Virus record (IMG/VR): IMGVR_UViG_3300012176_000002
Location: 53,474-117,473 of that record
Reading direction: 5' to 3' (one strand)
DNA from: a virus
Length of the DNA: 64,000 nucleotides
The notes under the pieces are model-generated. The model searched no databases, was not told the DNA's origin, and saw only the letters and a list, made by a program, of their open reading frames with translations. Made by a program: the position numbers and the translations under genes. Positions 13,989 through 51,722 of this stretch are shown piece after piece (the stretch's first letter is position 1; each line of letters opens with the position of its first letter).

Positions 13989-15377
13989 ATATTAACTTGT
14001 TTATTAGGGAGTGAAATAATTAATTGTTTTGACAACAAATATTCAAAAGAAATGTTGAAAAAATGGTCTGGCAAGAACATATTGATTTGCCCAGTTTGCG
14101 GTAATCCATATGAATATTGTCACGGGATGGTAGCTACCCCATATTTTCGTCATAAAGAAAAAGCAGAATGCCCAGATAAATACACAGAACCAGAGACCAA
14201 GGAACATATAAAGGGCAAGCAAGACTTGTATTACTGGATATCCAATCAAGATGATGTATCTGATGTTATATTAGAAGGATGGCTTCCGGAAACTAAGCAA
14301 CGCCCCGATATCATGTTCAAACATAATAAAATACAATATGTTATTGAATATCAATGTACTCCTATAGCAAGTGAATTTTATGAGAGACATTTGTTATATC
14401 AGGCGGCTGGTATTCATGATATTTGGATCTGTGGGACAGAAAAATATTTCTTTGATAGAGCTAGAGATAAGACTATAGAGAATCATTGCGATTGTTATTA
14501 TAATTCATCCTTAAAGCTTTTTGCCTTTAATAATATTAATTACCATCATCCCATATTAGATTTAAATGCAAAATATAACAGCAATGACAATGTACTTTTA
14601 AATAGGGTAAAAAGCCAAGGAGTAGGTATAAGAGAAGAAAAAGTATCAAGACTACCATTTTATTATATTGCTCCTGAAAATACAATATTTGATAATGATA
14701 AAATATGTTTGCATCAGGAGTTCTTAATTAATGTTAATCATAAATTAGAAATTAAAAAAACAATAATTGACATGCGAAAAGATTATAATGGGGAGATGAA
14801 ATTAGGTTTAGAAAGATTCTGTGAAAAATGTGTAAAACTCATACATGCAAAATATCAGAATTTCAGCAATTTTCACATAAGTTGTAAAAATTATAAGTAT
14901 AGATATAAAATAGAGATAGATAGTTATGTTTTTACTTTTCAAAAGAAGACAAATATAATTGATTTTTATGACTTAATACAGGAAAAATATGAACAGTATA
15001 ACTATACAGGGGAAAATATATATGAGGTAGTCAATTTGATCTGTAATTTTATCAATCCATTGATTCAAGAACTAAGCTTATATGATTCCTTTGTAAAAGA
15101 ATATAAAGATTACCCTTTCTATTTAATTATCGCCGAAAGCAAGAGGACGGATCAATATAAAAATGTAAGATTCAAATATCTTAGTGGCTTTCTAGACTCA
15201 TACTATTATTTTAGTACTGATTTTATGAAAGATTTTCTTAGTGTTTTAAAATTCAAATCTTCTCCCAAAATATTCATGATACCCTTCTCTGTTTATATGG
15301 ATCAAAAGATGCTTTTAGATATATTTAAAAAGCACGGATTTACTAATGTTAAATTTTTCAGCAAGGAGGATGAATGA
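13989..15377 (+). CDS. CoiA-like PD-(D/E)XK nuclease domain protein
   Basis: CPVC zinc knuckle, YFRH, PETKEH, RPDI, IEYQ motifs; ATA start after AGGAGG (ORF track start 14052). Confidence 0.7.
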   Translation: MLTCLLGSEIINCFDNKYSKEMLKKWSGKNILICPVCGNPYEYCHGMVATPYFRHKEKAECPDKYTEPETKEHIKGKQDLYYWISNQDDVSDVILEGWLPETKQRPDIMFKHNKIQYVIEYQCTPIASEFYERHLLYQAAGIHDIWICGTEKYFFDRARDKTIENHCDCYYNSSLKLFAFNNINYHHPILDLNAKYNSNDNVLLNRVKSQGVGIREEKVSRLPFYYIAPENTIFDNDKICLHQEFLINVNHKLEIKKTIIDMRKDYNGEMKLGLERFCEKCVKLIHAKYQNFSNFHISCKNYKYRYKIEIDSYVFTFQKKTNIIDFYDLIQEKYEQYNYTGENIYEVVNLICNFINPLIQELSLYDSFVKEYKDYPFYLIIAESKRTDQYKNVRFKYLSGFLDSYYYFSTDFMKDFLSVLKFKSSPKIFMIPFSVYMDQKMLLDIFKKHGFTNVKFFSKEDE

Positions 15378-17053
15378 CTAAACAAACCATATATGAAATT
15401 ATTAAACTACCAACTTCCGTGATATCAAGAAGTAAGAAAAAAGAAGCCCCTTCTAATGGCATAGTCTATAATTTGGGTAAATACTCCTACGAGAAAGCAA
15501 GTTCCAAATGCGAGATTGTTTCGATAGGAGATCACCAACTTTTTAGAAAAATAAGAGAATATTACGGTAACACAAAACACCCCGACGAAATATTTGATGA
15601 ACTTCACGATATTGGTGAAGCAATCAAACACCTTAAGTCTCAAACTAGTAGTGAAGATATTAAAAATCAAATCAGAAGTCTTGAAGACCAAAAACATAAT
15701 TTAATCTATGTAAAAGATGTAGTGAATGTGGTTGTTACAAATAAGGTGGCATATGAGTCAATTGCATTAAATGGATTTTTAATGAATGGAATAAGGTACA
15801 AACGATTCTGCTGCGGCTCCGGCCAGATGCGTAGAAATACCGTTACTTTCGTAAATGAACAATTATATGAGTACCTGCTGGAGCACTTGATGTGCGGATT
15901 ATATGGAAGAATAGAATCCATTTCTCTGGCAAAATTTTCTGCTTACTTCGCGCTCTCCTCTTCTTCCGTTCTATGGGTGAGAAAACCAAGAATTTGCGTA
16001 ATCCCCGACCTTGAAACATTGCTGCCAAACCAAAACATAGATTTTATTGTGAAAGATCCGGATGGATCAAAACACGTTGAAACAAGGGTGATGAATCTCA
16101 AACTAAATTCATGTGATGGAGAGGGACTAATATCCCCAGAATGTGCAGAATGGTTTTCTGCTGACATGGGATTAGATTATACGTGTTGCCAGTTTGTGGT
16201 ACGCACTCCGTTTGTAAAAGGATGTCTTCTAACATTTGACTTCAAGACTTATCTGAAAAATGTTTGTGGTACTGAAAAAATCAATAGCATTTATGGAGAA
16301 TGCTTTAAAATTGATGACATTGATGTCTTGCTAACAGAAAGCATGTTCAAGATGCATTCATTTTATAACAGCGTAAATGAATACCAAAGTTATCATGATG
16401 AGTACGATTTGCAATGGGGCATAGCAAGATATAACAAAAAGCAAGATAACGACTATTCCCTGTTAAATTATCAATACATCCAGAACAATAACCTAAATGA
16501 CAATGCAATTAAAAATTTAACCAATATGTCGGCTGATTGGTTTGAAAAAATTTGCTCAGGTGATAAGTTCTATACAATAATGTATGCTATTGGATCAAGA
16601 AAGGATGATTGCGATTTTGAGTCCATACAGAATTCATGTGGCAGCATTCATACAAAAGCTATTGTCCAAAACAGTCATATGCTAAAAGACGGATATGTAA
16701 GACGAAAAATATATGACAGCATCAAAGAAAGCTTTAGACAAGCTAAGTTGGGTAGGATATTTTGCCATGGCAATTACCAATTCATGTTGTCTGATCCAAT
16801 ACCGTTATTAAGGAACGCCGTTGGATTAGATCCCACTGGACTAATCCTCTCAGATCATATATATAGTAAATATTGGAATAATCATGCCCCTGTTGAAATT
16901 GATGCATGCCGTAGTCCTATGGTAGACCGGCATGAACATAATATTTTAAAATTGGCGAAAAATACTGAAATGGATTATTGGTATCAATACTTATACAGCG
17001 GGATCGTCTACTCCATCTATGACACAAGTACAATCCGGCATAGCGATAGTGAT
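15374..17053 (+). CDS. yonO: YonO-like single-subunit phage RNA polymerase, exon 1
   Basis: GSGQMR, DGEGLI, VRTPFVKG, RSP motifs; ends ...HSDSD at the intron boundary. Confidence 0.85.
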
Positions 17054-18213
17054 TAACATAGTAGTCACCCCATATTAGAAATAATTTGGGAAAAATTCGG
17101 TGAACCTGTAATTGCAGGGTGTGGCATTTATCAGCCGCTAACGGTGAAATTCTAAAAGCGATTTAATAAACATTATTTGTGGAGGTGTATTTAGGTCAAC
17201 AAATATTATGTTTATGAATGGTACAACATTAAAACTGGGTATGTGTTTTATGTTGGAAAAGGCAAAGGAAATAGAATAAATCAGACGCAAAAATCGAAAA
17301 GAAATAAATTTTTCATTAGATACATAAATAAATATGAATGTGCTGCCAGAATTATTAAAGATGACTTAACCGAGGAAGATGCACTCTTGTTAGAAAACCA
17401 GATTATAATTAGCTACAAAGAAACAGATCAATGCTGTTGTAATATGGATAATGGGGGTAGGAACGGAGGTTGCGCTTTTGCAGAAAACAATGGGATGTAT
17501 GGTAAAACACATACTGATGATGTAAAGGCTCTTATTAGTAAAATAAATTCCGATGGCAGACACAAAGGGGAAAATAATTCCCAGTATGGAATCTCTCCCA
17601 AAGACAGAATGTGTCCTGAAACATATAATGGATGGAAACTTAAGCAGTTAAACCGAAAGCATGGAGAAAGTAATCCTAATTTTGGCAATCACATTCTGCA
17701 TCAAAGATATTCAACTGATAAAGTCCTATCAAAAGAAAAACAATCTAGACCCAAGTCTAAAAACGGCAGGGCACAAAAAATATCCATGTATGATGAAAAA
17801 ATGAAAAATGAAATTAAATTCGATTGCATTAAAGACTGCGCTGAATATTTAATAGAAAACAATTTAACAAGAAGCAAAAATCCAGATATTATTTATCAAG
17901 GAATCTGGGCTGCTAAGCGCAAGAATAAACTGCGCTATGATCATTATTTTGTTTATTAAATTGCTCAAGAAAATACCGTGCCAAGCTTAGGTAGAAATAC
18001 CTATGAAGGTGTAACGACTAGGACATACAGGCTAAATCAATGATATGCCAATGAAGTCCGTACACGTTAGGTGAAAATCCTACGTGGAAGTTCCGAATAC
18101 GAATAAATATAGTTTATTCACGGTGGACTCGCTAACCACCGTCCTAACGTAAAACGAGGGTAAAGAGATAGTCTACTCCCCTAATAAATATCGGGAAACC
18201 GAGGGTATAAAGG
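17054..18213 (+). mobile_element. group I intron in the RNAP gene
   Basis: 5' exon ends in U and intron ends in G; AATTGCAGGG, GACTAG and AAGAGATAGTC core elements; removal restores SD|FDGD in frame. Confidence 0.9.
17195..17959 (+). CDS. GIY-YIG homing endonuclease (intron-encoded), NUMOD-like C-terminus
   Basis: YYVYEW...FYVGKG...R...E...N; GGAGGTG SD followed by in-frame GTC (ORF track start 17243 omits the first motif). Confidence 0.85.
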   Translation, partial: VNKYYVYEWYNIKTGYVFYVGKGKGNRINQTQKSKRNKFFIRYINKYECAARIIKDDLTEEDALLLENQIIISYKETDQCCCNMDNGGRNGGCAFAENNGMYGKTHTDDVKALISKINSDGRHKGENNSQYGISPKDRMCPETYNGWKLKQLNRKHGESNPNFGNHILHQRYSTDKVLSKEKQSRPKSKNGRAQKISMYDEKMKNEIKFDCIKDCAEYLIENNLTRSKNPDIIYQGIWAAKRKNKLRYDHYFVY

Positions 18214-39574: not shown

Positions 39575-41305
39575 ATGCCTGATTTAAAAATTTTAGCGGG
39601 AGTAGAACTAGAAAGTAATGCAATTAATACTCTCCGATCACAGTTGTCCGGCATAAAAGATGTAGTCTTGAAGGTTGATAAAATAGAAATTTCAAGTGCC
39701 GCCCTGAATAGTATTCGTTCTCAGGTATCTAGGTCTGGGCCTGAAATGGCTAGTGTTGGAACCGAATTAGGGAACCAAATTAGTGCAGGAATCAGTAGGG
39801 CGACCAGAAATATAAAGATCAATGTAAACAGTTCAGAAATTGATAAGTTAAGATCTGCATTAAGCTTAAAAGGTGTTGATACCCAAACTATTAGTGATAT
39901 TACTAATAGATTATCAAATCTTGATGTTCAAATAAAGAAAATTTCAACATCGTTTAAATCTGCTGACGGAAAAAATCTTTTATCACAAATCAATATATCT
40001 GCAATTAATCAACTAGGAAATGCAGTAGAAGTTATTGATAAATACAACCAAAAGACCGGGGAACTTACTTCCACTAATACAAGAGTATCTACTAGTTTTG
40101 ATCAAGTTGCTAGTGCCGCGGAAAAAGCGGCTGAACGAGAAAGAGTTGCCGCTGAAAAGGCAGCTAATGCAACTGAAAAGGCAGCTGCAAAAAAACAAGC
40201 TAGTATTCAATCTCAGATACAATCCGCAATTGACACTAATTCATTCGCCGCCAGCTTTGCCGGAATAGACGCTCAATTAAAAAGAGTTGGCGAATCGTCT
40301 CAATATTTGGATCAGAACTTCCAAAATACACTAAGAACGCTTGATGGATTTCGAGGCTTTAATTGGGATACAGTTAAAGGAAACCCTGAACAGGCTGCGA
40401 CTGCATGGAATTCATATAATACATCTTTAAAAAATGCCAGAAACACTTTGACTGCGGCCATAAGAGAGCAGTCCACTTTTGTTAATGGGCTAGAGAGAAT
40501 GAGAGCCATCTCTAGTATGGAGGCGTGGCTAAATAAAAATTCTGCCGCCAGTGCTCGATTCGGAGACCAGATAAAAAATATCATTACGCAATTAAAAACT
40601 GCCGATAGAACACAGTTTGATAATCTAAAGAATCAGTTTGCGATAGTTAAAGACCAAGCGGAAGCACTGAACATGACTGGTAGAAGTTTTTCCAGCGAAA
40701 TGAAGAACATGTTCTCAAAATTTTCAAGTTGGTTTAGCGTCGCTACTGTTGTCATGCAGAGTATTCGTGGCATTAAGCAAATGGTATCTGATGTTCATGC
40801 CATTGATACGGCATTAACAGATTTATATAAGGTAACGGATAACACTAGTACCCAATACGCTCAATTTTTTAAAGAAGCTTCAGCGAATGCAAAAGAGTAC
40901 GGAAGTACTATTAAAGATATGATCGCTTCCACCGCTGATTTTGCTAGGTTGGGGTACAGCCTGCAAGAAGCGTCTGTATTGGCGAAATCTGCAAATATTT
41001 ATAAAAACGTCGGGGACATTTCTGTTGAAGAGGGAACCAAGAGCATCATTAGTACATCCGCTGCTTGGCGCGAATATAAAAATGATCCAATGGCAATTGT
41101 CGATAAGTTTAATGAAGTTGGAAATAACTACGCAATTTCTTCAGAACAAATAGGAGAGGCCCTACAACGATCTGCCGCTTCGTTAATGGCAGCAGGAAAT
41201 GATTTAGATCAATCTATAGCAATTATTACAGCTGCAAATACAGTCGTACAAGACGCATCCGTTACCGGAACTGCAGTAAAAACCATGGCAATGCGCTTAA
41301 GGGGT
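39575..41305 (+). CDS. tail tape measure protein, exon 1
   Basis: TP901-type TMP domain motifs (DKFNEVGNNYAIS, L.RSAASL, TMAMRLRG). Confidence 0.88.
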
Positions 41306-42758
41306 AAGTCAAAATTGTGCCCAGTATGTAGAAATACATATACCGTGTGCGCTTAAACACGGCACGACAACTATATATGTTAAAGAGTTAGGGGTAACTC
41401 AAGACGTAGGAAAGATTACAATGCTTTTTTGAAAGGAAATGATAATATAAAACATACAATTGAATATATACAAACTATTTTTAATGAATATAATGTTTTT
41501 GTTTTAGAATACATAAACAGCAAAAATATAATAATTATTGATGAAGATGGCTTCAAATACAAAGCGCAATTATACCTTGTAGAAACTAAAAAAAAGCTTC
41601 CGCATAAATTCAGACAAAATCCATTTGTACTAGAAAACATTAATACTTATCTCAATAAAGTAAACTCTAATCTTCTATTATTAAGCAAAAAGTATATTAA
41701 TTGCAAAACAAAATTAGAATTTATTTGTTCACTTCATTCAAATGAGGGGTCTCAATATATTTCCTTAGACGATTTACTTCAGCGTACTGGTTCGTGCAAA
41801 TACTGTTCATATAAAAAACAAGGTGAATCCCAAAGAATAGATACATCAATAATAATTAATAGATGTATTGAATTAAATTTAACTTATGTTGATAGATATA
41901 ATAAAAATCAAGAAACATGTGTTACATTTATTTGTAACAATCATCCTAAAAAAGGGATTCAGCATATTATATGGTGCCATCTTAAAACTTGTTCCGTTGG
42001 GTGCTCTTTTTGTGCCGGACGAAATAAAACAACCGAAGATTTTCGGGAGGAAATGAAACATATTAGCCCCGACATTCAAATAACTGGTGAATATGGGGGA
42101 TCTGAAAAGCATGTTGAATGTAAATGTTTGATATGTCAACACGTTTGGCATCCAATTGGAAGAAGTTTAAAAAGTGGGCAAGGTTGCCCTGCGTGTTCAA
42201 TGAGTAAGGGCGAAAGATGTATTTTAAAAATTTTGAATAATTATAATATCCCCTTTTTATCTCAGCATACCTTTAAAGATTGTTCTTATATTGGAAAATT
42301 GAAGTTTGATTTTTATTTGCCGGATCATAATATCCTAATAGAATATGATGGGGAACAACATTTTTTCCCTGTTGATTTTGCCAATAAGGGGCAAGAGTGG
42401 GCTATTCAAAAATATGAGCAAATAAAAATGCGTGATAAAATGAAAGACGATTATTGTGCTAATAACAATATAAGATTAATTAGAATTCCATATACAGAAT
42501 TTGATTTAATTGAAAAAATAATAGAAACAGAAATTATATTTTAAAAAGCATTGTAAAATCCCAAGAGACTGCGGGGCATATGTGGTAACATATATGCTGA
42601 AGTTGTCCTCCCTGTTGAAAAACGAGAGTGATATACAGTCCAATCTCGCAATATAACCCCAAATTATTAAAATGCGAGAGTCGGCCAGAAATGACCGACC
42701 GCTATGTATTAACATAGTCAGTAATCATTTACTAATTCATGATGAAAGTCATAGATTG
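41306..42758 (+). mobile_element. group I intron A in the tape measure gene
   Basis: Exon ends GGT and intron ends G; P7 GACTG/CAGTC; P9.0 AATCT/AGATT before the terminal G; splicing restores MRLRG|AKTELEDAG. Confidence 0.9.
41429..42544 (+). CDS. intron-encoded Vsr/DUF559-like homing endonuclease with N-terminal zinc repeats
   Basis: KGE..I...L, FDFYLP, IEYDGEQH, RD..KD.YC..NNIRLIRIPY; true start may be ATA 41447. Confidence 0.82.
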   Translation: MKGNDNIKHTIEYIQTIFNEYNVFVLEYINSKNIIIIDEDGFKYKAQLYLVETKKKLPHKFRQNPFVLENINTYLNKVNSNLLLLSKKYINCKTKLEFICSLHSNEGSQYISLDDLLQRTGSCKYCSYKKQGESQRIDTSIIINRCIELNLTYVDRYNKNQETCVTFICNNHPKKGIQHIIWCHLKTCSVGCSFCAGRNKTTEDFREEMKHISPDIQITGEYGGSEKHVECKCLICQHVWHPIGRSLKSGQGCPACSMSKGERCILKILNNYNIPFLSQHTFKDCSYIGKLKFDFYLPDHNILIEYDGEQHFFPVDFANKGQEWAIQKYEQIKMRDKMKDDYCANNNIRLIRIPYTEFDLIEKIIETEIIF

Positions 42759-43295
42759 GCAAAAACAGAATTAGAAGATGCCGGACTAGATACAGAAGGC
42801 ATGGCAACATCAGTTGCATCATTAAGAAAAGAACTAGAAGCACTTGCTGGCGTTGACATTATGCTCGACGATGACACGTTCAAAGAAAGTTTTGATATCT
42901 TTGATGGTATTGCTGAAAAGTGGGGCGAGCTAAAAGACATTCAAAAAGCAACGATTACAGAATTAGTCGCTGGAAAACGCCAGGGCAACGTTTTCTCATC
43001 GCTCATGGAAAATTGGGACGTTGCTAAGGAAACTCTTCTTACCTCACAAAATTCTGCCGGAAGTGCAATGAAGGAAAACGAAAAGTTCCTTGAAAGCATG
43101 GACGGTAAACTTGCTCAGTTAAAAGCAAATTTTGAAACACTTTCAACTGGTATTTTTAACTCTGATTTCCTCAAAGGAGCTATTGATGCCGGTTCTGCAT
43201 TTTTAGACGTCTTATCAAAAATAATAGAAGCATTAGGAGTATTCGGAACCATTGGCGCAGGTGCCGGTATTGCGATGCTAGTCAAGAGCTTAGGT
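42759..43295 (+). CDS. tail tape measure protein, exon 2 (179 aa)
   Basis: AKTELEDAG...ELVAGKRQGN...SAGSAMKENEKFLES; ends KSLG. Confidence 0.85.
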
Positions 43296-43779
43296 AGACC
43301 AAAACAGGTCTTGCTTATTTCCGACAGTAAGCGAGCCTACCATAAAGAAGAATATGCTATAACGGCAGCATAAACAACTTTGTGGCATTGCGGCTCTATA
43401 AAAAATAAAGAGGATTAATTGCTGGGATACCAGAATGCCAATCAAGCTACAACGTGGATTTAAATATCGGGCGTGAATGCGGCGAAAGCAGAAAAAATTG
43501 ATTGGATGGCAAAGGGTGAAATAAAAGCGTGATTCTATCGCGTCCCTTAAAGAGCCACTAACAACGGTACGATCAGCAGCCAACCCTACAGCGTTTAGTA
43601 ATACTATATAATCCGGTAGTAAAAGTAGCGCAAGCTATGCCGGGGTAAAAGTATGAATCGTGGGGAAAGTTCAACGAGCACCATTCCTCAGAGTGTATCA
43701 CCGCCTTAGAGTGATATGCTTTTAATGTATGTTCTAAGTGAAACAGTTCAAATGAATCAATAATATAGTTCATAACGGG

Positions 43780-43821
43780 AACAACCACCTCAAACGGCAA
43801 AGTTTAGGATGGTTGTTTTTT
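43780..43821 (+). terminator. terminator-like hairpin inside intron B (may also be a P9 element)
   Basis: AACAACCA...TGGTTGTT followed by a T-run. Confidence 0.55.
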
Positions 43822-43847
43822 GAGTGATTGTATTTTTTATTTCCTAT

Positions 43848-43876
43848 ATTTTAGCACTATGGGAATAGAAAGTCAA
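43848..43876 (-). promoter_or_regulatory. sigma-A-like promoter, antisense into the intron B ribozyme core
   Basis: TTGACT-N17-TAAAAT on the minus strand. Confidence 0.65.
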
Positions 43877-43927
43877 TAGTAGTATTACTAAAATCATGAA
43901 AAATCATAAGAAGGAGAAAGAGAGATA

Positions 43928-44146
43928 ATGGCTGAATTAAAAGTAGTATTCAACAATGTAGTATTCCATGACGAGGAAGGAAACGAAATTGTTTTTAAAC
44001 CAGTTAGAAAGGAAGATGGAAGTTATAGTTTAAAGGGGGATCTGGAAGAGGAAAAGGAAACCCTAGAAAGTCTTGCTTTGAGGATTTGGGAATTGGAATG
44101 TATGGTGTGTGAGCAGCAGTTGGAAATTAGTGAATTAATAAGATAA
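43928..44146 (+). CDS. intron B cargo ORF 1 (72 aa, acidic)
   Basis: AAGGAG SD, ATG start, hairpin downstream. Confidence 0.7.
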   Translation: MAELKVVFNNVVFHDEEGNEIVFKPVRKEDGSYSLKGDLEEEKETLESLALRIWELECMVCEQQLEISELIR

Positions 44147-44284
44147 CGAAAAAGAATAACAAGTCCCCTCTCGTTAAAAGAAGGGGTTTTGCTGTTACTT
44201 AAATCTTATGTATGTCTTTTTTTGTAACAGGGGCAAGTCAATAGTAGTATCAATTAAATTCATAAAAAAAAGGAGAAAGAGATA

Positions 44285-44800
44285 ATGGAAAATAAACAAA
44301 AGTTGGGGTGCAAAAAAGTGATACTGGGGGAATTCATAGAAGAACTTTCAGAAATCATACTTGATTATGCATGTCAGAAAAAAATGACAATATCCAATAT
44401 TGAAGAGGTCTTGGCGATAGTAATAGGTTATATGGAAGATAACGCAACTATGACAGATGATACTCATGCCGTTGATACAATTCTAACAGATTTATGTTCT
44501 GATATCCACGATATTTATGCGGCTTTAGCAGAATTATATAAGGTGACTGATAATACTAGTACCCAATACGCCCAGTTTTTAAAAGAAGCCCCTGCCAACG
44601 CCAAGGAATGCGGAAGCACTATTAAAGACTATATTTCTTTTACCGCAGACTTTGCCAAGCTGAGATATAGCTTGCAAGAGTCATCCATATTGGCGAAATT
44701 AGTAAATTTTTATAAAAACACCGGAGACATTTCCGTCGAAGAGGGAGTCACTAGCACAAAATTTTACCATGAAGAAGGTAAAGAACCAATAAAAATTTAG
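44285..44800 (+). CDS. intron B cargo ORF 2: chimera containing a diverged copy of TMP exon 1 sequence
   Basis: LYKVTDNTSTQYAQF.KEA.ANAKE.GSTIKD...GDISVEEG is shared with exon 1. Confidence 0.75.
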   Translation: MENKQKLGCKKVILGEFIEELSEIILDYACQKKMTISNIEEVLAIVIGYMEDNATMTDDTHAVDTILTDLCSDIHDIYAALAELYKVTDNTSTQYAQFLKEAPANAKECGSTIKDYISFTADFAKLRYSLQESSILAKLVNFYKNTGDISVEEGVTSTKFYHEEGKEPIKI

Positions 44801-44911
44801 TCCCAAAAGTATGAGGGATGGTATAAACTAGAGAACCGCATAATATTTTTAAAGCACAATATTAAATAAGGTGTCCCGCTGCCTATATCCCAAAGGTGGA
44901 GCATTAAAGTT

Positions 44912-44937
44912 AAAAGAGACCGAAATGGTCTCTTTTT
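44912..44937. terminator. bidirectional terminator between convergent cargo genes
   Basis: AAAAGAGACC-GAAAT-GGTCTCTTTT perfect 10-bp stem. Confidence 0.8.
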
Positions 44938-44995
44938 AATTAGAACAAAAAATCAGCAGATTTTTACGGAGGATGCAAGTTGCATCTTCCGTCAA

Positions 44996-45475
44996 TTACC
45001 ACGTATGACCACAACTCTTGCACTTAAAACTCTTATTAATTTTCCTACTAAAAATCCCCAATCCTGCTATTGAAGCTCCGCGTTCCATTGCGCCAATCTT
45101 TTGAACGACATTGCTTCCACAGGTAGGGCATTTTGGGGTTGGGTCGATTGGTTGGGTGAATGCCGGGGAGGTAGGGGTTTGTGTTTCAGGAAGGGGTGAA
45201 GCAAGGGGTGGGCTCAAGTATTCCCATCTAACACCATCGTGTGTGAATTTCGCCTGTTCTCCTCTATGACATCTTTCACAAAATCGTGCTATACACCTAT
45301 ACAAATCTTCCATCATGCTGTATTCCTCATTTCCACATTGTGGGCAAATATAGGATTCGGACAATAAGTTCTTCCACCTACTACTATGATCCTCCCCGCA
45401 TTGAGGACAAAGATCTGTTCCGAAATTTATAAATGAACTACATTTAACGCACTTGATGAAGCCATAAGTGATCAT
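44996..45475 (-). CDS. intron B cargo ORF 3: multi-zinc-ribbon protein (159 aa), antisense
   Basis: Multiple CxxC pairs, C-terminal KCPTCGS...FKCKSCGHTW; GGAGG SD; start moved to MITYG. Confidence 0.8.
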   Translation of the reverse strand: MITYGFIKCVKCSSFINFGTDLCPQCGEDHSSRWKNLLSESYICPQCGNEEYSMMEDLYRCIARFCERCHRGEQAKFTHDGVRWEYLSPPLASPLPETQTPTSPAFTQPIDPTPKCPTCGSNVVQKIGAMERGASIAGLGIFSRKINKSFKCKSCGHTW

Positions 45476-45504
45476 TGATTTTTCCTCCATTTTGTAATAA
45501 GACA

Positions 45505-45533
45505 ATTGTAACATAAATAAAAGAATATTCCAA
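45505..45533 (-). promoter_or_regulatory. sigma-A-like promoter for the zinc-ribbon cargo gene
   Basis: TTGGAA-N17-TACAAT with extended TG. Confidence 0.65.
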
Positions 45534-45539
45534 TACTTG

Positions 45540-48500
45540 TCGATAAAATCTGTCGGAGATATAGCAAGTACTACTAGTCTTATTTCAAATTTAGGGCAAA
45601 ATGTTCAAGCAATCACAATGGCGATGCATGGATTTAGCGCGGCACAGCAAGTTTCAATGATGACTTCCGCTGGACTTGATAGCGCTATTCAAAATCAAGT
45701 TTTATCATTACAAGGATTAAGCCCCGCACAAGTTCATGCTGCGATGTCCAATGCAACTATGGCGACCGCAACAACTACCAATGCCGCAGCTCAAGGATTA
45801 TTGACAAAAGCACTCGGAGCATTGAAGGCTGCCGTTATTGCACATCCAATATTAGCCTTTGCAGCAGCAGTCGGAATTGCATTTGTCGCAGTAGATCTAT
45901 TAACCGAATCACTGTCAGAGGCGCAGGAAAAAGCCGCCGAATCTGCCGAAGCATATGAGAAGATAAAAACAGAAATTCAGCAGATGAACGATGAATTGGA
46001 GACTGCTCGTGACAGAATTAATGAACTAAATGCTAGAGAAAACCTTTCTCTCGTTGAAGAAGCGGAACTAGAAAAATTAAAGGTACAGAACGAATACCTT
46101 GAAAAGCAAATTTCGCTAAAGGAAGCACTGTCGGGCTTTAGCCAAAAACAGGCTATTAGTGACGCGGTAAATGCAGCTGGTAAAACTTCTGAGAAAGCTG
46201 TTGCTTATGAAGGACAGTATTATCGAGCAGACGGTACGACTGGTGACAAGTATGACGACACCTATGGTAGATATGGACTAAATCGCCTAGACTACGTTCA
46301 GTCAAATTTAAATGCAATAAAGACCTACGAGCAAATTATTAATGATCTGCAAAAACAGCAAAATGCGTTAGATAAAGAATCTGAGACTTTCCAAGATGAT
46401 TTTAATGACTTGGATAAACAAATCAACGCACATTTATCCAAAATTGATGAATGGAATGCTGAAGTAGCTTCTGTTATGGGGGAACTTGGTGAAGAGTTAA
46501 GCACTACATTGGAAGCATATCTGAATGATATTTCTATGAGCGATGAAGCTACTCAGATTGTCGAGCAGTACAACTCTCTCATGGATCAGATCCTAGGCGC
46601 TACTAACAGCGCAGTAGATGAAGCCAGCAACAAAACAGATATTATTGACAAGATTTTTGATCAAAAAAAATGGAGCGACGCCCTTTCTGATATGCAATAT
46701 GCATATGGGGCAGGAATCAGTCTTGATGATATATTAGGCGACTTCTTCACAATAAATAAGGACATCTCTACTGTTCTTGATGAAGCAGGGATAAATAAAG
46801 AAGAACTGAGCAAATATCTAAAATCCCTCCTTGCGCCTGATGAAATTGATTTCAATGAGTTAAGAAGTCAGCTCACTACCACTCTTGATCTTGAAAACTC
46901 TTCTCTTGCTAAAAATAAATGGCTTGACTCCAAATCTGACATGCAGATAGAAATTCTATATGGCATTTCTAAAGACAGGGATATATCTACATTGTCTATG
47001 GAAGAACTCGACGCAGAAATTGAGAAGATCCAAAATCAGAAAATATTCATATCCGTTTCTGATGCAGCTGAACAAATAGCGGCAGTTGGCGAAGAGCAAG
47101 AACTTGTCAACAAGATCCTTAGTGAAGGTACTTCTATTGCCGCTGAAGATTATCAGAAGCTTATTGAATATTCGAAAGAATATGAGTCCTGCCTGACGTA
47201 TGAGGGGGACAGATATACTCTAAATCGCAAAGCGCTCAAAGACCTTACAAAAGAGCGTGAGAAAACCCTTAAAACGCAGATTAAAGAAGCTAAAAATAAT
47301 AAGTATCTTGATTATCATAATTTGTCTAAGGAGTTATATGCTCTCACTCGCGACTATTCGAAATATGACGCCAGCAAAGACCGTTCAATCAAAACCACAC
47401 TAGCTCAGTTAAGTAGCCTAGAAGCAGAAATCAATCAATACAGACTTCTAGAGCAACAATTATTGACCGCTTCAAACGCATTTGATAAGTACAAAGAATC
47501 AAAGAATGCGGCTGATTATGGTGATAATTACAATACGTCTAATGACGCCAGAGGATCTTTAAAAGAAGGTTTTGAAACAGGAAAGGTAGGAACGGTAGAG
47601 TTTGAAAGCGCCGTTGACTTACTCGTTCCCGAAGCTGAAATTGATAAGGGCATTTCTGGGATTAAAAAGTACTATGACAAAACAATCAAAAAATATTTCA
47701 CTGATGACAATGACGGTGTTGTTAATTTTATAAACGACGCACTTTCCAAGGGACTGTTCACTGGTTCTCTTAGTGACTTCTTAGTGACTGATGGGAAGGT
47801 ACTAGATGATTTCTGCGAACAGTTAAATATAACCAAAGAAGTTGCGCTTGCCATATTTGGTGAATTGGAAACCTATGGATACGGGCAGAATTTTGATTGG
47901 TTTGATGAACTGTTTAGGGGCTCTGAAGATTCTTATAACGCACTTGAATCCTTGGAAGTTCAGTTACTAAAAACCAAGGCAGAAATGATTAAAAGTGGTG
48001 ATTGGGGCTTTGACGGTGAAAGTAATAGTGCCAAGACCAAAGAAGTCATTGACCGACTTGAAGAAATTAAACAAAAAAAGAAGGAAGTAGCCCTTACTGC
48101 CGCTGATGGTATTATTAACTATGAACAGGACAAGGCGAATCTAGAGAAATTATATCAGGATTATGAAGCTTTACTCGTTCAGATAAACCAATCAGAAGAT
48201 GAAGAAGTAAAAATAAAGCTACAAGCAGAAGCAGATGAATTATATGCACAAATAGAACATTTAGAAAGCCAGCTTACAGAGCCAACCGAAATGAATATTA
48301 CCATTGCGGAAGAAACTTTAACATCTGAACTGGCTAAGTTCAAGAGAGCATCCGAAGATCCTCAATACGCTGCTGCAATTAATATTACTACCGACGAAGC
48401 CCAAGGGAAAGTCGATGAATTTACCCAGAAACTTGAAGCGATAAATCAAATAAAATATGACCAACAAGAATCTGTACTTTATGGGGTGGGGCAAACGGTT

Positions 48501-51500
48501 GATAAAATCAAGTCAAAGATTGAATCAACAAAGGATTTAAACGTCACCACGACTACGGCAATGACTAGGCTGGAGGCGGTCAATAATTATGTAACCGCTC
48601 TTCGTAACAAGATTTCGCTAGGGGCTAGTTTTAAGGTAACGACAACAACTTCCGATCCTGCGAGTGTCAATGGGACGGCACATGCTAGAGGAACTGTTCC
48701 GAAGATTAAATCCGCAAGTTTTGGAAATGGATATTTAGGAAAAGCTTACTCATCTGGCAATTGGGGAATTGGTCGTGACGAAATTTCTCTGACGGGTGAA
48801 CTTGGGCAAGAGATGGTAGTCAGAGACGGCAGATTCTTTACTGTTGGAGACAATGGCGCAGAAATGGTCGGTCTTAAGAAGGGCGATATAGTATTTAATC
48901 ACCTTCAGACTCGTGAACTTTTGTCGAAGGGTTACGTTACCGGACGTGGAAGGGCTTACGCTGAAGGTTCTGCTTATGTTTCCGGTGGTTCTGGAATCAA
49001 TGTAACTGGCGGGACAAGTAGCAAATCTAGTAGTAAGTCCAGCAGTAAATCCAGTAGTAAAACTAATTCATCCGACGATTCAGACGCGTCTAAGAGTTTG
49101 GAAGACTGGATTGAACGTTTTATTGACGCTTTTCAATACGGGGCGAATGCACTTCAAAGACTTGCGAATGATGTCTACCAGAGATACACCGATCAAAACC
49201 CTGTTATCAATCAAATGGTCTCTGACATACATAATTTTGTTCAACTTGAACAGCAAATGTATGATAGATATATGCAACAAGCCAACTCTCTCGGACTGTC
49301 TTCTGATTACGTCCAAAAGATCCAAAACGGCGCAATTGATATTAGTACCATTACTGATGATAATCTAAAAGAAAAAATTTCTGATTATAAGCAGTGGTAT
49401 GACAAAGCGCAAGGTGTGAAAGAAACTATTGCTGAATTAAAAGTTCAGATCAGAGATCTAAATAATCAAAAACTAAGCAACATTGTGGATGATTTTGAAC
49501 AACTAATTGGTCTCAGCAAAAGCTTGATTTCAGTACAGGAATCATACATTAAGTTAATTGAGGAGTCAGGGAAACGTGTTGTTGAAAATGATTATACGGT
49601 TCTTATTGGAGAGGAAGCCAATACCCTAAGATATCTAAATGCACAGTTCGCAACGCTAAACGCTGAATATAACTCCCTTGTAGCAGCCGGTGCTCTTGAT
49701 ATAGATGACTTCATCAAGTGGAAAACGGTTCTTACTGATATCAAAGAGGAAATCTACCAATCGCAAATAGCATTAGAGCAATATAAGAATTCGATCCGCG
49801 AAGTTCGGTGGGAACCGTTCTTATCTGGCTTGGACGGTCTTGATAATGCAAACGATGCTCTGGACGATATGATGACTCTTTTGGGCAATAGTGGACTGTT
49901 TGATGAAACCAACATTTCATCCATCGGGAAGACCAAATTAGGCTTGCTAAGTCAACAGCTTGTGAACAACAAAAAGATGGCAGCGCAGTATAAAGAAGCC
50001 ATTAACACTCTTGCCAAAGAACTCAAGAATGGAACAATCACCCAGAAGGAATACGATGAAGAATTACTGAAATATCAAAAACTGCAACGTGAAGCTGCCA
50101 TTGCTACCAAAGAAAGCAAAGATGCAATAATCAGTTTAATAAAAGATGGAATTGACAAAGAAACTGAAGCATTCAACAAACTCATCGCAGCTAAAAAAGA
50201 GGCCCTGTCTCAAGACAAGAAAAATGATGAGTATGCTAAAAAGGTAAATGATAAGCAAAAACAAATCAATGCAATCCAAGCTCAACTTGCAGGATTAGAG
50301 GGCGATAACTCCGCAGAGGCAATTCAAAAGAGAAAGAAATTAAATTCTCAATTGAGTACTCTGAATGAGGAATTGCAGGAAATTCGTAAAGACAGGGAAA
50401 TTGAAACTTTAGAGCAAACTTATGATGACGCACTTGAATTATTTGAAGAATATCAAGAAAAGATAAAAGATGAGTTAGACTATAATCTTGATTTGAGAGA
50501 TAAAGAAATTGCTAATATGCTCATCACGACAAAATCCAGCTATGATGAAATATTCGGTTATTTGCAGGATCTATCAGATAATTACAACGTGGCTCTGACG
50601 GACAGTATTACTAATCCATGGAAATCTGGCACAGCAGCCGCTCAAAATTATTATGATGCGGTAAATAAGATTTCCGGTGTATCATCTGGAATAGATACCG
50701 CTCCGGTTAGCACGACATCCTCTAATGAGTCAAGCATTCGGCAGCTATACTCTTCTCTTCTGGGGAGAGACGCCGACAAGACTGGACTGGAACATTTTCT
50801 AAGTATGATGGATTCAGGGACGACGCTGGATCAAGTAAAGTCGGATATTTTGAATTCAAGTGAATACAAAATCAAAAGTCTTTATAAAAGCGTTCTTGGG
50901 CGCGATGCTGATGCTGTAGGGTTACAACATTGGACGAATGCCCTGAACAGCGGCGCTTCTTTATCTGAGATTGAATCAGCAATGCGTATGTCCGATGAGT
51001 TCTGGAAGAGGTCGAGCGAATTTGTGACGGGACTATATAAGGATGTTCTAGGTCGTAGTCCTGATTCTGCGGGACTGAATACTTGGCTACAAGCTATGCA
51101 GAAAGGAATGTCTAAAAAGGAAGTTGAAAGGTCATTCTACAATTCTGCGGAATTCCAGAATAAATATTCCGGTAAGTCCAATCAAGATTATATAACTGCT
51201 TTATACAGCAAGATCCTAAACAGATCCCCTGATTCTGGCGGGTTGTCAACATACTTATCTGCACTGAATAGTGGCAAACCTCGTTCTTATGTTGTTGATG
51301 CGTTACTATATTCGGATGAGTTCAAGAAGCTAAAGGGTTATGCGAAAGGAACGATTCGAGTTCCAAAAACCGGTGTTTATAAAACCCAAGAAGAAGGATT
51401 GGAAGCTATAATTGGTAGTGGGGGACTTGTCACTCCGCTAAATAAGGGAGACACTGTATTTACAAACCCTCAAACGATGCAGCTATGGGATATGTCGAAA

Positions 51501-51722
51501 GATCCCTCTTCTTTTATTCTGAAGAATTTATCTAATGCTCTGCCAAATTATTCAGACTTGAATTCTCAACCTGCTTTAAGTGTGCAGATAGATAAACTGA
51601 TAGGAAGTGTTGAGTATAGGAATAAAGATGATTTGCCAGAACTTAAAAGATTTTTAGAAATGGCTGCGGATCATACTATAGATAGGATCAAGGGGCAAGC
51701 AAGAAATCTCGGTAAGTTATAA
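45540..51722 (+). CDS. tail tape measure protein, exon 3 (spliced product about 2816 aa), with four DUF4214-like repeats near the C-terminus
   Basis: Long helical ORF with no SD at its start; LY..LLGR.PD..GL..W repeats. Confidence 0.85.
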   Translation, partial: SIKSVGDIASTTSLISNLGQNVQAITMAMHGFSAAQQVSMMTSAGLDSAIQNQVLSLQGLSPAQVHAAMSNATMATATTTNAAAQGLLTKALGALKAAVIAHPILAFAAAVGIAFVAVDLLTESLSEAQEKAAESAEAYEKIKTEIQQMNDELETARDRINELNARENLSLVEEAELEKLKVQNEYLEKQISLKEALSGFSQKQAISDAVNAAGKTSEKAVAYEGQYYRADGTTGDKYDDTYGRYGLNRLDYVQSNLNAIKTYEQIINDLQKQQNALDKESETFQDDFNDLDKQINAHLSKIDEWNAEVASVMGELGEELSTTLEAYLNDISMSDEATQIVEQYNSLMDQILGATNSAVDEASNKTDIIDKIFDQKKWSDALSDMQYAYGAGISLDDILGDFFTINKDISTVLDEAGINKEELSKYLKSLLAPDEIDFNELRSQLTTTLDLENSSLAKNKWLDSKSDMQIEILYGISKDRDISTLSMEELDAEIEKIQNQKIFISVSDAAEQIAAVGEEQELVNKILSEGTSIAAEDYQKLIEYSKEYESCLTYEGDRYTLNRKALKDLTKEREKTLKTQIKEAKNNKYLDYHNLSKELYALTRDYSKYDASKDRSIKTTLAQLSSLEAEINQYRLLEQQLLTASNAFDKYKESKNAADYGDNYNTSNDARGSLKEGFETGKVGTVEFESAVDLLVPEAEIDKGISGIKKYYDKTIKKYFTDDNDGVVNFINDALSKGLFTGSLSDFLVTDGKVLDDFCEQLNITKEVALAIFGELETYGYGQNFDWFDELFRGSEDSYNALESLEVQLLKTKAEMIKSGDWGFDGESNSAKTKEVIDRLEEIKQKKKEVALTAADGIINYEQDKANLEKLYQDYEALLVQINQSEDEEVKIKLQAEADELYAQIEHLESQLTEPTEMNITIAEETLTSELAKFKRASEDPQYAAAINITTDEAQGKVDEFTQKLEAINQIKYDQQESVLYGVGQTVDKIKSKIESTKDLNVTTTTAMTRLEAVNNYVTALRNKISLGASFKVTTTTSDPASVNGTAHARGTVPKIKSASFGNGYLGKAYSSGNWGIGRDEISLTGELGQEMVVRDGRFFTVGDNGAEMVGLKKGDIVFNHLQTRELLSKGYVTGRGRAYAEGSAYVSGGSGINVTGGTSSKSSSKSSSKSSSKTNSSDDSDASKSLEDWIERFIDAFQYGANALQRLANDVYQRYTDQNPVINQMVSDIHNFVQLEQQMYDRYMQQANSLGLSSDYVQKIQNGAIDISTITDDNLKEKISDYKQWYDKAQGVKETIAELKVQIRDLNNQKLSNIVDDFEQLIGLSKSLISVQESYIKLIEESGKRVVENDYTVLIGEEANTLRYLNAQFATLNAEYNSLVAAGALDIDDFIKWKTVLTDIKEEIYQSQIALEQYKNSIREVRWEPFLSGLDGLDNANDALDDMMTLLGNSGLFDETNISSIGKTKLGLLSQQLVNNKKMAAQYKEAINTLAKELKNGTITQKEYDEELLKYQKLQREAAIATKESKDAIISLIKDGIDKETEAFNKLIAAKKEALSQDKKNDEYAKKVNDKQKQINAIQAQLAGLEGDNSAEAIQKRKKLNSQLSTLNEELQEIRKDREIETLEQTYDDALELFEEYQEKIKDELDYNLDLRDKEIANMLITTKSSYDEIFGYLQDLSDNYNVALTDSITNPWKSGTAAAQNYYDAVNKISGVSSGIDTAPVSTTSSNESSIRQLYSSLLGRDADKTGLEHFLSMMDSGTTLDQVKSDILNSSEYKIKSLYKSVLGRDADAVGLQHWTNALNSGASLSEIESAMRMSDEFWKRSSEFVTGLYKDVLGRSPDSAGLNTWLQAMQKGMSKKEVERSFYNSAEFQNKYSGKSNQDYITALYSKILNRSPDSGGLSTYLSALNSGKPRSYVVDALLYSDEFKKLKGYAKGTIRVPKTGVYKTQEEGLEAIIGSGGLVTPLNKGDTVFTNPQTMQLWDMSKDPSSFILKNLSNALPNYSDLNSQPALSVQIDKLIGSVEYRNKDDLPELKRFLEMAADHTIDRIKGQARNLGKL

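What the first reader, a model, noticed from the sequence alone, without database searches (positions are those of the whole stretch)
44996..45539. Antisense zinc-ribbon gene whose promoter overlaps the 3' splice signal
Seen: a 159-aa multi-CxxC protein on the minus strand with a GGAGG SD and a TTGGAA-N17-TGnTACAAT promoter. The -35 box (45528-45533) touches the P9.0 strand (45533-45538) and the terminal G. The same few bases would serve as a DNA promoter and an RNA splice signal. Inference: the gene is expressed by host RNAP independently of the late operon, as expected for a lysogenic conversion, superinfection exclusion or defence factor.
Basis: partly seen in the sequence, partly recalled or inferred. 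Interest (0 to 1): 0.6.

Follow-up and report, generated by a model that had tools for sequence, protein, structure and literature searches.

The report
Antisense zinc-ribbon gene in tail intron
A small zinc-binding protein gene with its own bacterial-type promoter lies backwards at the end of a self-splicing intron in a phage tail gene, and it is the recurrent cargo of that intron in many phages of gut Clostridia, although its function is still unknown.

Summary
On the minus strand, 44996-45475 encodes a 159-aa protein with six CxxC pairs. It has a GGAGG ribosome-binding site and a TTGGAA-17-TGtTACAAT promoter whose -35 box abuts TACTTG|, the proposed 3' splice site of a 2.2-kb group I intron in the tape-measure (TMP) gene.

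The gene is real: dN/dS is 0.11-0.15 against a 90%-identical relative. It belongs to a large, unnamed family defined by a basic 45-aa C-terminal zinc ribbon, with about 178 clusters at E<1e-10.

Its position is conserved. In 63 of 65 viral loci the gene lies antisense between the TMP parts, and never on the TMP strand. Its ATG lies 43-75 nt from the 3' splice site. In a TMP-based sample it occurred in 14 of 27 interrupted alleles and 0 of 53 uninterrupted ones.

Sigma-A-like promoters are enriched upstream of family members. The -35 box sits at the intron end, across the terminal G or inside the exon, depending on lineage. Tight packing is therefore general, but the exact overlap is not conserved.

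The N-terminal module and promoter are swapped as a cassette between near-identical phages. Neighbouring cargo is defence-like.

Function is inferred only. A host-RNAP-expressed phage-conflict factor is most likely; an intron-dedicated role is not excluded. No RNA data could be obtained.

The parts
44996..45475 (-). ZnR gene: 159 codons plus stop. Three 4-Cys zinc ribbons.
   Evidence: dN/dS is 0.11-0.15 against L006. The AF2 model has pLDDT 79.
44999..45136 (-). Family-defining C-terminal zinc ribbon of 46 aa (CPTCGS..ERGASI.GLGIFS.KINKSFKC.SCGHTW). Net charge is about +6.
   Evidence: Alignments A1, A4 and A7. 178 clusters at E<1e-10. Charge. It is 92-97% nt identical among close relatives whose N-modules differ.
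45172..45533 (-). Swappable cassette: the variable N-terminal two-ribbon module, the SD and the promoter.
   Evidence: Homology to L001, L007 and L008 breaks at 45171 and resumes at 45534. pS is about 0.8 between allele types.
45484..45488 (-). Shine-Dalgarno GGAGG, 8 nt before the ATG.
   Evidence: SD-like motifs precede most family members.
45505..45533 (-). Sigma-A-type promoter TTGGAA-17-TGtTACAAT.
45534..45539 (+). Last six intron bases, TACTTG. The terminal G is at 45539. TACTT can pair with AAGTG at 43739-43743.
   Evidence: Conserved in all close relatives. Homology blocks end and resume exactly here. G|xLKxxG is found in at least 12 lineages.
43296..43745 (+). Group I-like ribozyme core, P1 to P8, at the 5' side of the intron.
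   Evidence: nhmmer finds it in distant relatives. P3, P4 and P8 covary: 76.5% of cells are paired against 37-43% when partners are slid. Rfam RF00028 does not detect it.
43746..44995 (.). Variable cargo between the core and ZnR. It holds a 72-aa ORF (43928-44146, +), a 171-aa ORF with a copied TMP fragment (44285-44800, +) and hairpins.
44912..44994 (.). Two hairpins downstream of the ZnR stop (44967-44994 and the symmetric 44912-44939). They are the likely end of the ZnR transcript.
   Evidence: Read from the sequence. The terminator scan did not list them.
45540..51722 (+). TMP exon 3, 2060 aa, with no SD or ATG of its own.
   Evidence: The junction VKSLG|SIKSVGD is collinear with uninterrupted TMPs.
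42759..43295 (+). TMP exon 2. It ends in GGT, and the U pairs with G43335 in P1.

Best explanation
This is a real accessory gene that host sigma-A RNA polymerase transcribes from its own promoter, in the direction opposite to the phage's late tail operon. It sits in the terminal loop of a group I intron inserted at one fixed site of the tape-measure gene (…G|xLKxxG…) in SPbeta-like temperate phages of Lachnospiraceae and Oscillospiraceae. It is the recurrent, probably original, cargo of that intron.

The protein is modular:
- A near-invariant, strongly basic C-terminal zinc ribbon, with a conserved flexible loop, most likely docks on a conserved partner. Nucleic acid is the leading guess.
- An acidic, rapidly exchanged N-terminal zinc-ribbon module most likely sets specificity.

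The most likely role is in phage-phage or phage-host conflict in lysogens and early infection: superinfection exclusion, defence or counter-defence. The intron would serve as a safe harbour that lets such genes sit inside an essential late gene.

Shown: the gene, its selection, its family, its position and its promoter signals.
Inferred: the timing of expression, the binding partner and the conflict role.
For: Coding and selection:
- dN/dS is 0.11-0.15.
- The family has 178 clusters at E<1e-10, and the domain is always C-terminal.

Position:
- 63 of 65 viral loci have TMP parts on the opposite strand around the gene, and none on the same strand.
- ZnR is present in 14 of 27 interrupted TMP alleles and 0 of 53 uninterrupted ones (Fisher 1.3e-8; not corrected for relatedness).
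- The minimal element L210 is core, then hairpin, then antisense ZnR.

Own promoter:
- It is kept in both diverged alleles.
- It is enriched family-wide, 42% against 4.3%.
- SD-like motifs are present in about three quarters of family genes.

Conflict role:
- The N-module and promoter are swapped as a cassette between phages whose downstream tail genes are 100% identical.
- Some phages carry two to four tandem paralogues.
- Other cargo in the same bay includes DUF262/GmrSD-like, DUF3800, trypsin-like and 4-TM proteins.
- Family members outside TMP sit beside an integrase, a methylase and a GmrSD/HNH nuclease; beside IS elements; or beside HerA and radical-SAM genes.

Temperate lifestyle:
- The genome has a serine recombinase and three tyrosine recombinases.
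- Homologues occur in bacterial chromosomes such as C. asparagiforme DSM 15981.
Against:
- No hit to any known defence family in PADLOC-DB 2.0.
- No informative fold.
- No signal peptide. A membrane span is present in only 6 of 178 members, unlike classical injection-blocking exclusion proteins.
- Retention at the same spot over phages whose TMPs are only about 25% identical is tighter than expected for a freely exchangeable moron. It hints at a link with the intron itself.
- The promoter control used random, mostly coding, windows rather than intergenic ones.
Confidence: 0.45

Rival explanations
1. Intron-dedicated factor. The basic zinc ribbon binds the intron RNA, or the DNA of the TMP insertion site. 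It acts as a splicing cofactor or repressor, bringing the distant 3' splice site to the core or keeping TMP unspliced in lysogens. Alternatively it acts as a non-nuclease helper of intron spread or retention.
For: - Strict co-occurrence with the interrupted allele and never with the intact one.
- A fixed place next to the 3' splice site in every lineage.
- It is the only ORF in the minimal element L210.
- This intron has no homing endonuclease of its own.
- The C-domain carries a charge of +6.
Against: - Family members also occur away from TMP genes, in defence or mobile islands.
- Tandem paralogues and a hypervariable N-module are not expected of a maturase.
- No catalytic residues are conserved.
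- About half of the interrupted alleles sampled show no ZnR within 9 kb. Some of those are cut short, and some have islands longer than 9 kb.
Confidence: 0.22
2. The transcript matters more than the protein. A constitutive antisense RNA started at the splice junction covers the last 0.55 kb of the intron. By RNA pairing or polymerase collision it silences leaky TMP expression in the lysogen.
For: - The promoter always sits on or next to the 3' splice site and fires into the intron.
- The intron carries sense-strand hairpins that would stop host RNAP.
Against: - The protein is under clear purifying selection, and its C-domain is conserved at the amino-acid level with free synonymous change.
- SD sites are kept.
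- An RNA-only role would not preserve six CxxC pairs.
Confidence: 0.1
3. Relic of a transposon. The element descends from an IStron-like chimera, and the ZnR ribbon is what is left of a TnpB- or IS-type zinc ribbon.
For: - The layout matches IStrons in having a ribozyme core at the 5' side and a long cargo before the 3' splice site. IStrons combine a group I intron with an IS element (PMC4227781). The 3' placement of the IS part is from memory.
- Weak Pfam hits to Cas12f1-like_TNB and Zn_ribbon_IS1595 (E 0.002-0.003, below cut-off).
Against: - The hits are below every cut-off and typical of any CxxC knuckle.
- The spacing between knuckles is 32 residues, which by my recollection is longer than in TnpB ribbons (not checked here).
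- The orientation is antisense.
- No transposase, RuvC remnant or IS ends were seen.
Confidence: 0.04
4. Chance ORF or decaying pseudogene with a fortuitous promoter match.
For: The promoter scan of the region finds no more sites than shuffles do.
Against: dN/dS is 0.11-0.15, hundreds of homologues exist, and the start, SD and promoter are conserved.
Confidence: 0.01

Closest known systems
Group I introns in prophage tape-measure genes of the Bacillus cereus group (TMP-IVS1-3; Tourasse & Kolsto 2008, PMC2504315)
   Same: - Group I (IA-type) introns split the TMP gene of temperate siphophages of Firmicutes.
- Several of them lack a complete homing endonuclease.
- Different introns can occupy the same site.
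   Different: No antisense gene or non-endonuclease cargo is mentioned in the prophage-intron section of that paper that was read here, and a search of its text for 'antisense' and 'opposite strand' found nothing. Here the intron carries 1.8 kb, and more than 9 kb in relatives, of independently promoted genes. A conserved antisense zinc-ribbon gene sits at its 3' end.
Intron-encoded homing endonucleases and maturases, including the antisense endonuclease gene of the Didymium S956-2 intron (from memory)
   Same: - An ORF housed in a peripheral loop of a group I intron and inherited with it.
- A precedent exists for antisense orientation with its own expression signals.
   Different: - No nuclease motif (LAGLIDADG, GIY-YIG, HNH, His-Cys, PD-(D/E)xK) was found.
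- No catalytic residue is conserved.
- The family also occurs outside introns.
IStrons (group I intron plus IS200/IS605 element; PMC4227781; bioRxiv 10.1101/2023.11.20.567912)
   Same: - A chimera of a group I ribozyme with protein-coding cargo. IStron copies of about 1.9 kb were probed for in vivo splicing (PMC4227781).
- This shows such an architecture can work, and that RNA and protein functions can share sequence.
   Different: - Here the cargo is not a transposon.
- The conserved gene is antisense and has a host-type promoter.
- The insertion site is one fixed codon of one gene rather than many sites.
Phage morons, lysogenic-conversion genes and superinfection-exclusion genes (for example Ltp of S. 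thermophilus TP-J34, PMC3952083; P22 SieA, PMC10461980)
   Same: - An autonomous promoter-gene-terminator unit embedded in a late operon of a temperate phage.
- Likely expressed from the prophage.
- The known exclusion proteins Ltp and SieA act at the DNA-entry step, and Ltp is reported to act on the tape-measure protein (both from memory).
   Different: - Known exclusion proteins are lipoproteins or membrane proteins. ZnR is a soluble, basic zinc-ribbon protein.
- Its harbour is an intron inside the TMP gene rather than an intergenic site.

Membership tests
Group I intron (the host element of the gene) | 5' exon ends in U, which pairs with G in P1. The internal guide sequence is present. | tested here: met
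   UAGGU (43291-43295) pairs with GCCUA (43335-43339), giving U43295-G43335. P1 is poorly conserved in the distant alignment, at about 60% paired.
Group I intron (the host element of the gene) | Terminal G at the 3' splice site, and in-frame exon ligation that restores the host protein. | tested here: met
   G45539|TCG. The junction VKSLG|SIKSVGD is in phase and collinear with uninterrupted TMPs. A G precedes xLKxxG in at least 12 lineages.
Group I intron (the host element of the gene) | Conserved core helices P3-P8, with P3 and P7 forming the pseudoknot. | tested here: met
   P3 is 100% paired, P4 82.5%, P8 88% and P7 69%. Nine pairs show compensatory change. The whole structure is 76.5% paired against 37-43% when partners are slid. 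Only about four independent lineages were available.
Group I intron (the host element of the gene) | Match to the curated Rfam model RF00028. | tested here: not met
   No hit, even at E<=10. The same model found three introns in Staphylococcus phage PMBT8 but not the adjacent stretch that is 78% identical to this core.
Group I intron (the host element of the gene) | Splicing of the RNA. | not testable with these tools
Homing endonuclease or intron maturase | A nuclease or maturase fold and motif (LAGLIDADG, GIY-YIG, HNH, His-Cys box, PD-(D/E)xK). | tested here: not met
   Pfam, NCBIfam and PHROGs give only sub-threshold zinc-ribbon hits. The invariant residues are Cys, Pro, Ser, Gly, Lys and Ile only.
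Moron or lysogenic-conversion gene | Own promoter and terminator, inserted in a late operon of a temperate phage. | tested here: met
   Promoter and SD. Hairpins after the stop codon. Recombinases in the genome. Prophage copies.
Moron or lysogenic-conversion gene | Expressed from the prophage and changes the host phenotype. | not testable with these tools
   Needs RNA-seq and phage-challenge assays.
Known anti-phage defence systems (PADLOC-DB 2.0) | Significant match to a defence protein model. | tested here: not met
   The only hit is a Cas12f zinc-knuckle match at E 0.009.
TnpB/IS-type zinc ribbon (IStron relic) | Significant match to OrfB/TNB or IS1595 ribbon models, or remnants of RuvC or transposase. 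| tested here: inconclusive
   Sub-threshold hits at E 0.002-0.003. No transposase-like ORF lies in the intron.

The most novel reading that the evidence does not exclude
The zinc-ribbon protein is the intron's own non-nuclease 'selfish' gene, a functional replacement for a homing endonuclease. It would be expressed from a promoter assembled across the intron-exon junction, and so only where the intron sits in this TMP site. It would bind a conserved nucleic-acid or protein target and give intron-bearing phages or lysogens an edge over intron-less competitors, or control splicing of the tail gene. That would explain why this antisense gene, and not an endonuclease, has stayed at the 3' splice site across a whole clade of Clostridia phages.
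Probability: 0.17. Interest if true: 0.85.

Novelty: new variant of a known kind. Interest (0 to 1): 0.62.

Why it matters
Group I introns are thought to persist through homing endonucleases or to decay. Here one intron site in an essential tail gene has instead kept a small antisense, non-nuclease gene with a host-type promoter across a wide clade of gut-Clostridia phages. It has also grown into a cargo bay of up to more than 9 kb holding defence-like genes.

If the protein proves to be a conflict factor, introns become a new class of safe harbour for prophage-encoded defence. The 45-aa ribbon would then be a handle for finding such genes.

If the protein acts on the intron, it would be a new kind of intron-encoded protein.

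Either way, the promoter placed on a splice junction gives a tractable case of DNA and RNA signals sharing the same few dozen bases. The architecture is present in cultured strains, for example C. asparagiforme DSM 15981, so it can be tested.

Tried and rejected
- Rfam: no group I hit in the window or in 17 related loci, at the gathering threshold or at E<=10.
- Cultured phages: tblastn of the protein against 50,697 phage records found nothing. Megablast of 24 kb of the window found nothing.
- PADLOC: no defence family.
- Fold searches:
  - Foldseek against PDB gave its best hit to Rpb9-type double ribbons at E 0.02 and TM 0.2.
  - VIA-align wide gave a best Z of 3.9.
  - The atlas returned only unnamed zinc-ribbon clusters.
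  - A PDB profile search returned only generic ribbons at E>=0.07.
  - The C-domain folded alone gave pLDDT 67 with a floppy loop, so it was not searched.
- P9.0: I tried to confirm the AAGTG/TACTT pairing by covariation in L013 and L009. No consistent partner was found.
- Co-variation of the N-module with exon 3: I considered that the ZnR N-module co-varies with the first 400 aa of exon 3. Type B alleles go with both 78% and 89% identical exon starts, so there is no clean link.
- Membrane anchor: I considered this for the hydrophobic loop. Only 6 of 178 members have a true span, and the point could not be settled.
- Complex prediction was not run, because no specific partner is claimed.

Full report
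**What is there**

The window is part of a 119,764-bp IMG/VR viral contig with 35.8% GC. The contig has a serine recombinase and three tyrosine recombinases. It also encodes an RNA-polymerase-like protein whose relatives lie in B. subtilis SPbeta-type phages and Enterocloster phages. A close relative carries YomN and YomU tail proteins. The element is therefore an SPbeta-like temperate phage.

The tape-measure (TMP) gene is in three pieces:
- Exon 1 runs from 39575 to about 41300 and carries PhageMin_Tail.
- Exon 2 runs from about 42759 to 43295.
- Exon 3 runs from 45540 to 51722. It encodes 2060 aa and has no SD or ATG.

The finding concerns the minus-strand ORF between exons 2 and 3.

**The observation**

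- The ORF 44996-45475 gives 159 aa with six CxxC pairs. GGAGG lies 8 nt before the ATG.
- The promoter is TTGGAA (45533-45528), a 17-nt spacer, then TGtTACAAT.
- The 159-aa start is the right one. The longer ORF would begin upstream of the -10 box. The 156-aa homologues also begin at the equivalent residue.
- The -35 box abuts TACTTG (45534-45539), which ends in the proposed terminal G.
- One promoter match in AT-rich DNA is not above chance: 6 sites were found against 7.4 expected. I therefore relied on comparison, described below.

**Is the surrounding element an intron?**

Rfam's RF00028 does not see it. Four lines of evidence still support an intron:
1. 43296-43745 has the group I landmarks. 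These are a P1 with U43295-G43335, AATTGC…GCAGCC (P4), GAGGA…TCCTC (P3), GAGCA…TGCTT (P7) and a P8 hairpin.
2. nhmmer finds the same core in distant relatives. On that alignment the helices are 76.5% paired, against 37-43% when partners are slid. Nine pairs change on both sides. This rests on about four independent lineages.
3. Joining 43295 to 45540 is in frame. The product, …VKSLG|SIKSVGD…, aligns without a break to uninterrupted TMPs of related phages.
4. Compared with a 90-95% identical phage (L001), homology stops at 43743 and resumes at 45534. These points lie just after AAGTG and just at TACTT, which can pair with each other. In L001 the pairing is AAGTA/TACTT.

Group I introns in prophage TMP genes are already known in the B. 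cereus group (PMC2504315). IStrons show that group I ribozymes with protein-coding cargo exist, and copies of about 1.9 kb were probed for in vivo splicing (PMC4227781).

**The gene is real and belongs to a large unnamed family**

- Against the 90%-identical copy in L006, dN/dS is 0.15 in the N-part and 0.11 in the C-part.
- A full-library HMMER search found 1568 relatives at E<=1e-3 and 178 clusters at E<=1e-10. Nearly all match only the last 45-50 residues, always at the C-terminus of proteins 65-282 aa long.
- The consensus is CPTCGSTNIxKIGGxERGASVxxLGLFSKKINKSFKCxNCGYTW.
- No Pfam, NCBIfam, PHROG or PADLOC model reaches its cut-off.
- The domain carries about +6 net charge, while the rest of the protein is acidic. 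Only 6 of 178 members have a membrane span.
- AF2 models the N-terminal two-ribbon module well (pLDDT 82-95). It models the knuckles of the C-ribbon well but not its conserved loop.
- Fold and PDB searches gave only generic zinc-ribbon likenesses.

**Position is the striking part**

I searched IMG/VR with the family motif and obtained 68 loci.
- Of the 65 loci with a clear hit, 61 have the TMP N-part on the opposite strand beyond the gene.
- 50 have the TMP C-part on the opposite strand before it. 63 have at least one of the two.
- None has TMP on the same strand.
- TMP identity to the window falls to about 25%.
- The big C-terminal TMP frame opens within about 100 nt of the ZnR start and almost never has an SD-preceded start. 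ZnR usually has ATG plus SD.

I then asked the converse question by sampling 80 loci by TMP exon 2 similarity.
- 53 are uninterrupted at this site, and none has ZnR.
- 27 are interrupted, and 14 have ZnR. Several of the remaining 13 are cut short or have islands longer than the 9 kb fetched.
- Fisher's test gives 1.3e-8, not corrected for relatedness.

The smallest version, L210, is simply core, hairpin, antisense ZnR and exon 3, with the ATG 27 nt from the splice site.

In bacterial genomes the family lies in Lachnospiraceae, Oscillospiraceae and other Clostridia. Most copies are again between TMP parts, including in [Clostridium] asparagiforme DSM 15981. None of 50,697 deposited phage genomes has it.

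**The promoter and the splice site**

- Near-identical phages carry two alleles. Type A is in the window and L006. Type B is in L001, L002, L003, L007 and L008.
- The swapped block is 45172-45533, which holds the N-module, SD and promoter. The C-domain (92-97% nt identity) and TACTTG|TCG stay the same. Between the types pS is about 0.8.
- Type B has TTGGCA-17-TGcTATAAT at the same distance from its ATG, but its -35 box lies 11 nt from TACTTG. The exact overlap is therefore not conserved.
- Family-wide, strong sigma-A-like matches occur upstream of 42% of 161 genes, against 4.3% of random windows. The -10 box ends about 27-45 nt before the ATG.
- Where the splice site can be placed (G|xLKxxG, at least 12 lineages), the ATG is 43-75 nt away.
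- The best -35 box lies in one of three places:
  - at the intron end (window, type B, L019, L080);
  - across the terminal G (L009, L015, L095, L128);
  - inside exon 3 (L011/L013, L063/L065, L010, L012, L148).
- The general feature is crowding of the ZnR control region onto the intron-exon junction.

**What it may do**

Several points favour a conflict or accessory role:
- The N-module is exchanged as a cassette between otherwise near-identical phages.
- Some phages carry two to four tandem paralogues.
- The same bay holds DUF262/GmrSD-like, DUF3800, trypsin-like, HExxH and 4-TM proteins in other phages.
- Family members outside TMP sit next to an integrase, an EcoRI-type methylase and a GmrSD/HNH nuclease; next to IS elements; or next to HerA and radical-SAM genes.

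Expression by host RNAP would fit SPbeta biology. In SPbeta the late operon is read by the processive phage polymerase YonO (PMC5467207). That could also explain read-through of the sense-strand hairpins in the intron, but this is inference.

Other points favour a role tied to the intron:
- The gene is absent from intact TMP alleles.
- Its place at the 3' splice site is fixed.
- It is the sole ORF of the minimal element.
- The intron has no endonuclease.
- The ribbon is basic.

I put the conflict-factor reading at about 0.45, the intron-factor reading at about 0.22, an RNA-only antisense role at about 0.1, and a transposon-relic origin at about 0.04.

**Verdict**

- The finding is a new variant of a known kind: a group I intron ORF that is antisense, non-nuclease, self-promoted and conserved as the hallmark cargo of one TMP intron site.
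- It is testable in cultured strains.

Noticed in passing
window 44285-44800 (+): The C-terminal half of this 171-aa cargo ORF (aa 70-155) is 62% identical to TMP exon 1 residues 403-487. It is a copied piece of the host gene fused to an unrelated N-terminus. The ORF is 95-100% conserved in L001 and L006.
   Followed up: partly
window 41300-42760; L008 3667-4402 (reverse complement coordinates): The first TMP intron carries a 371-aa endonuclease (phrog_559, E 9e-57). L008 has the same intron at the same site without the endonuclease ORF. In L001, L006 and L007 the endonuclease-bearing intron lies about 230 nt further downstream in the TMP gene.
   Followed up: partly
window 43410-43528; L004 2001-2112; L005 2001-2113: The P4-P5 part of the intron core is 76-78% identical to unannotated stretches in 34 Staphylococcus phages (Kayvirus, PMBT8 and others). 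Rfam finds three tandem group I introns just upstream in PMBT8 but not this stretch. A subclass of phage introns seems invisible to RF00028.
   Followed up: partly
window 43870-43885 and 44235-44250: The same AGTCAATAGTAGTAT header, followed by AAGGAGAAAGAGA(GA)TAATG, precedes both sense-strand cargo ORFs, as if they were cassettes with a shared leader.
   Followed up: no
window 43780-43826, 44160-44190, 44912-44939 (+): These are terminator-like hairpins with T-runs on the sense strand inside the intron. They must be read through for TMP to be made. Read-through by a YonO-type phage RNAP is a guess.
   Followed up: no
L150 10644-11645; L152 10769-11512; L148 12421-13128; L158 6796-7152: In related phages the same TMP gap holds a DUF262/GmrSD-like protein, a DUF3800 protein, trypsin-like peptidases and a 4-TM protein. 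The gap exceeds 9 kb in some, so it is a real cargo island.
   Followed up: partly
L028 3242-3352 (-): There is a drum RNA (RF02958) match of 67.7 bits inside or next to the C-terminal TMP region of a related phage.
   Followed up: no
window 15374-17056 (+): This 560-aa protein has relatives in B. subtilis SPbeta-type phages, Clostridium phage c-st and Enterocloster phages (24-34% identity). It is probably the N-part of a YonO-like phage RNA polymerase.
   Followed up: partly
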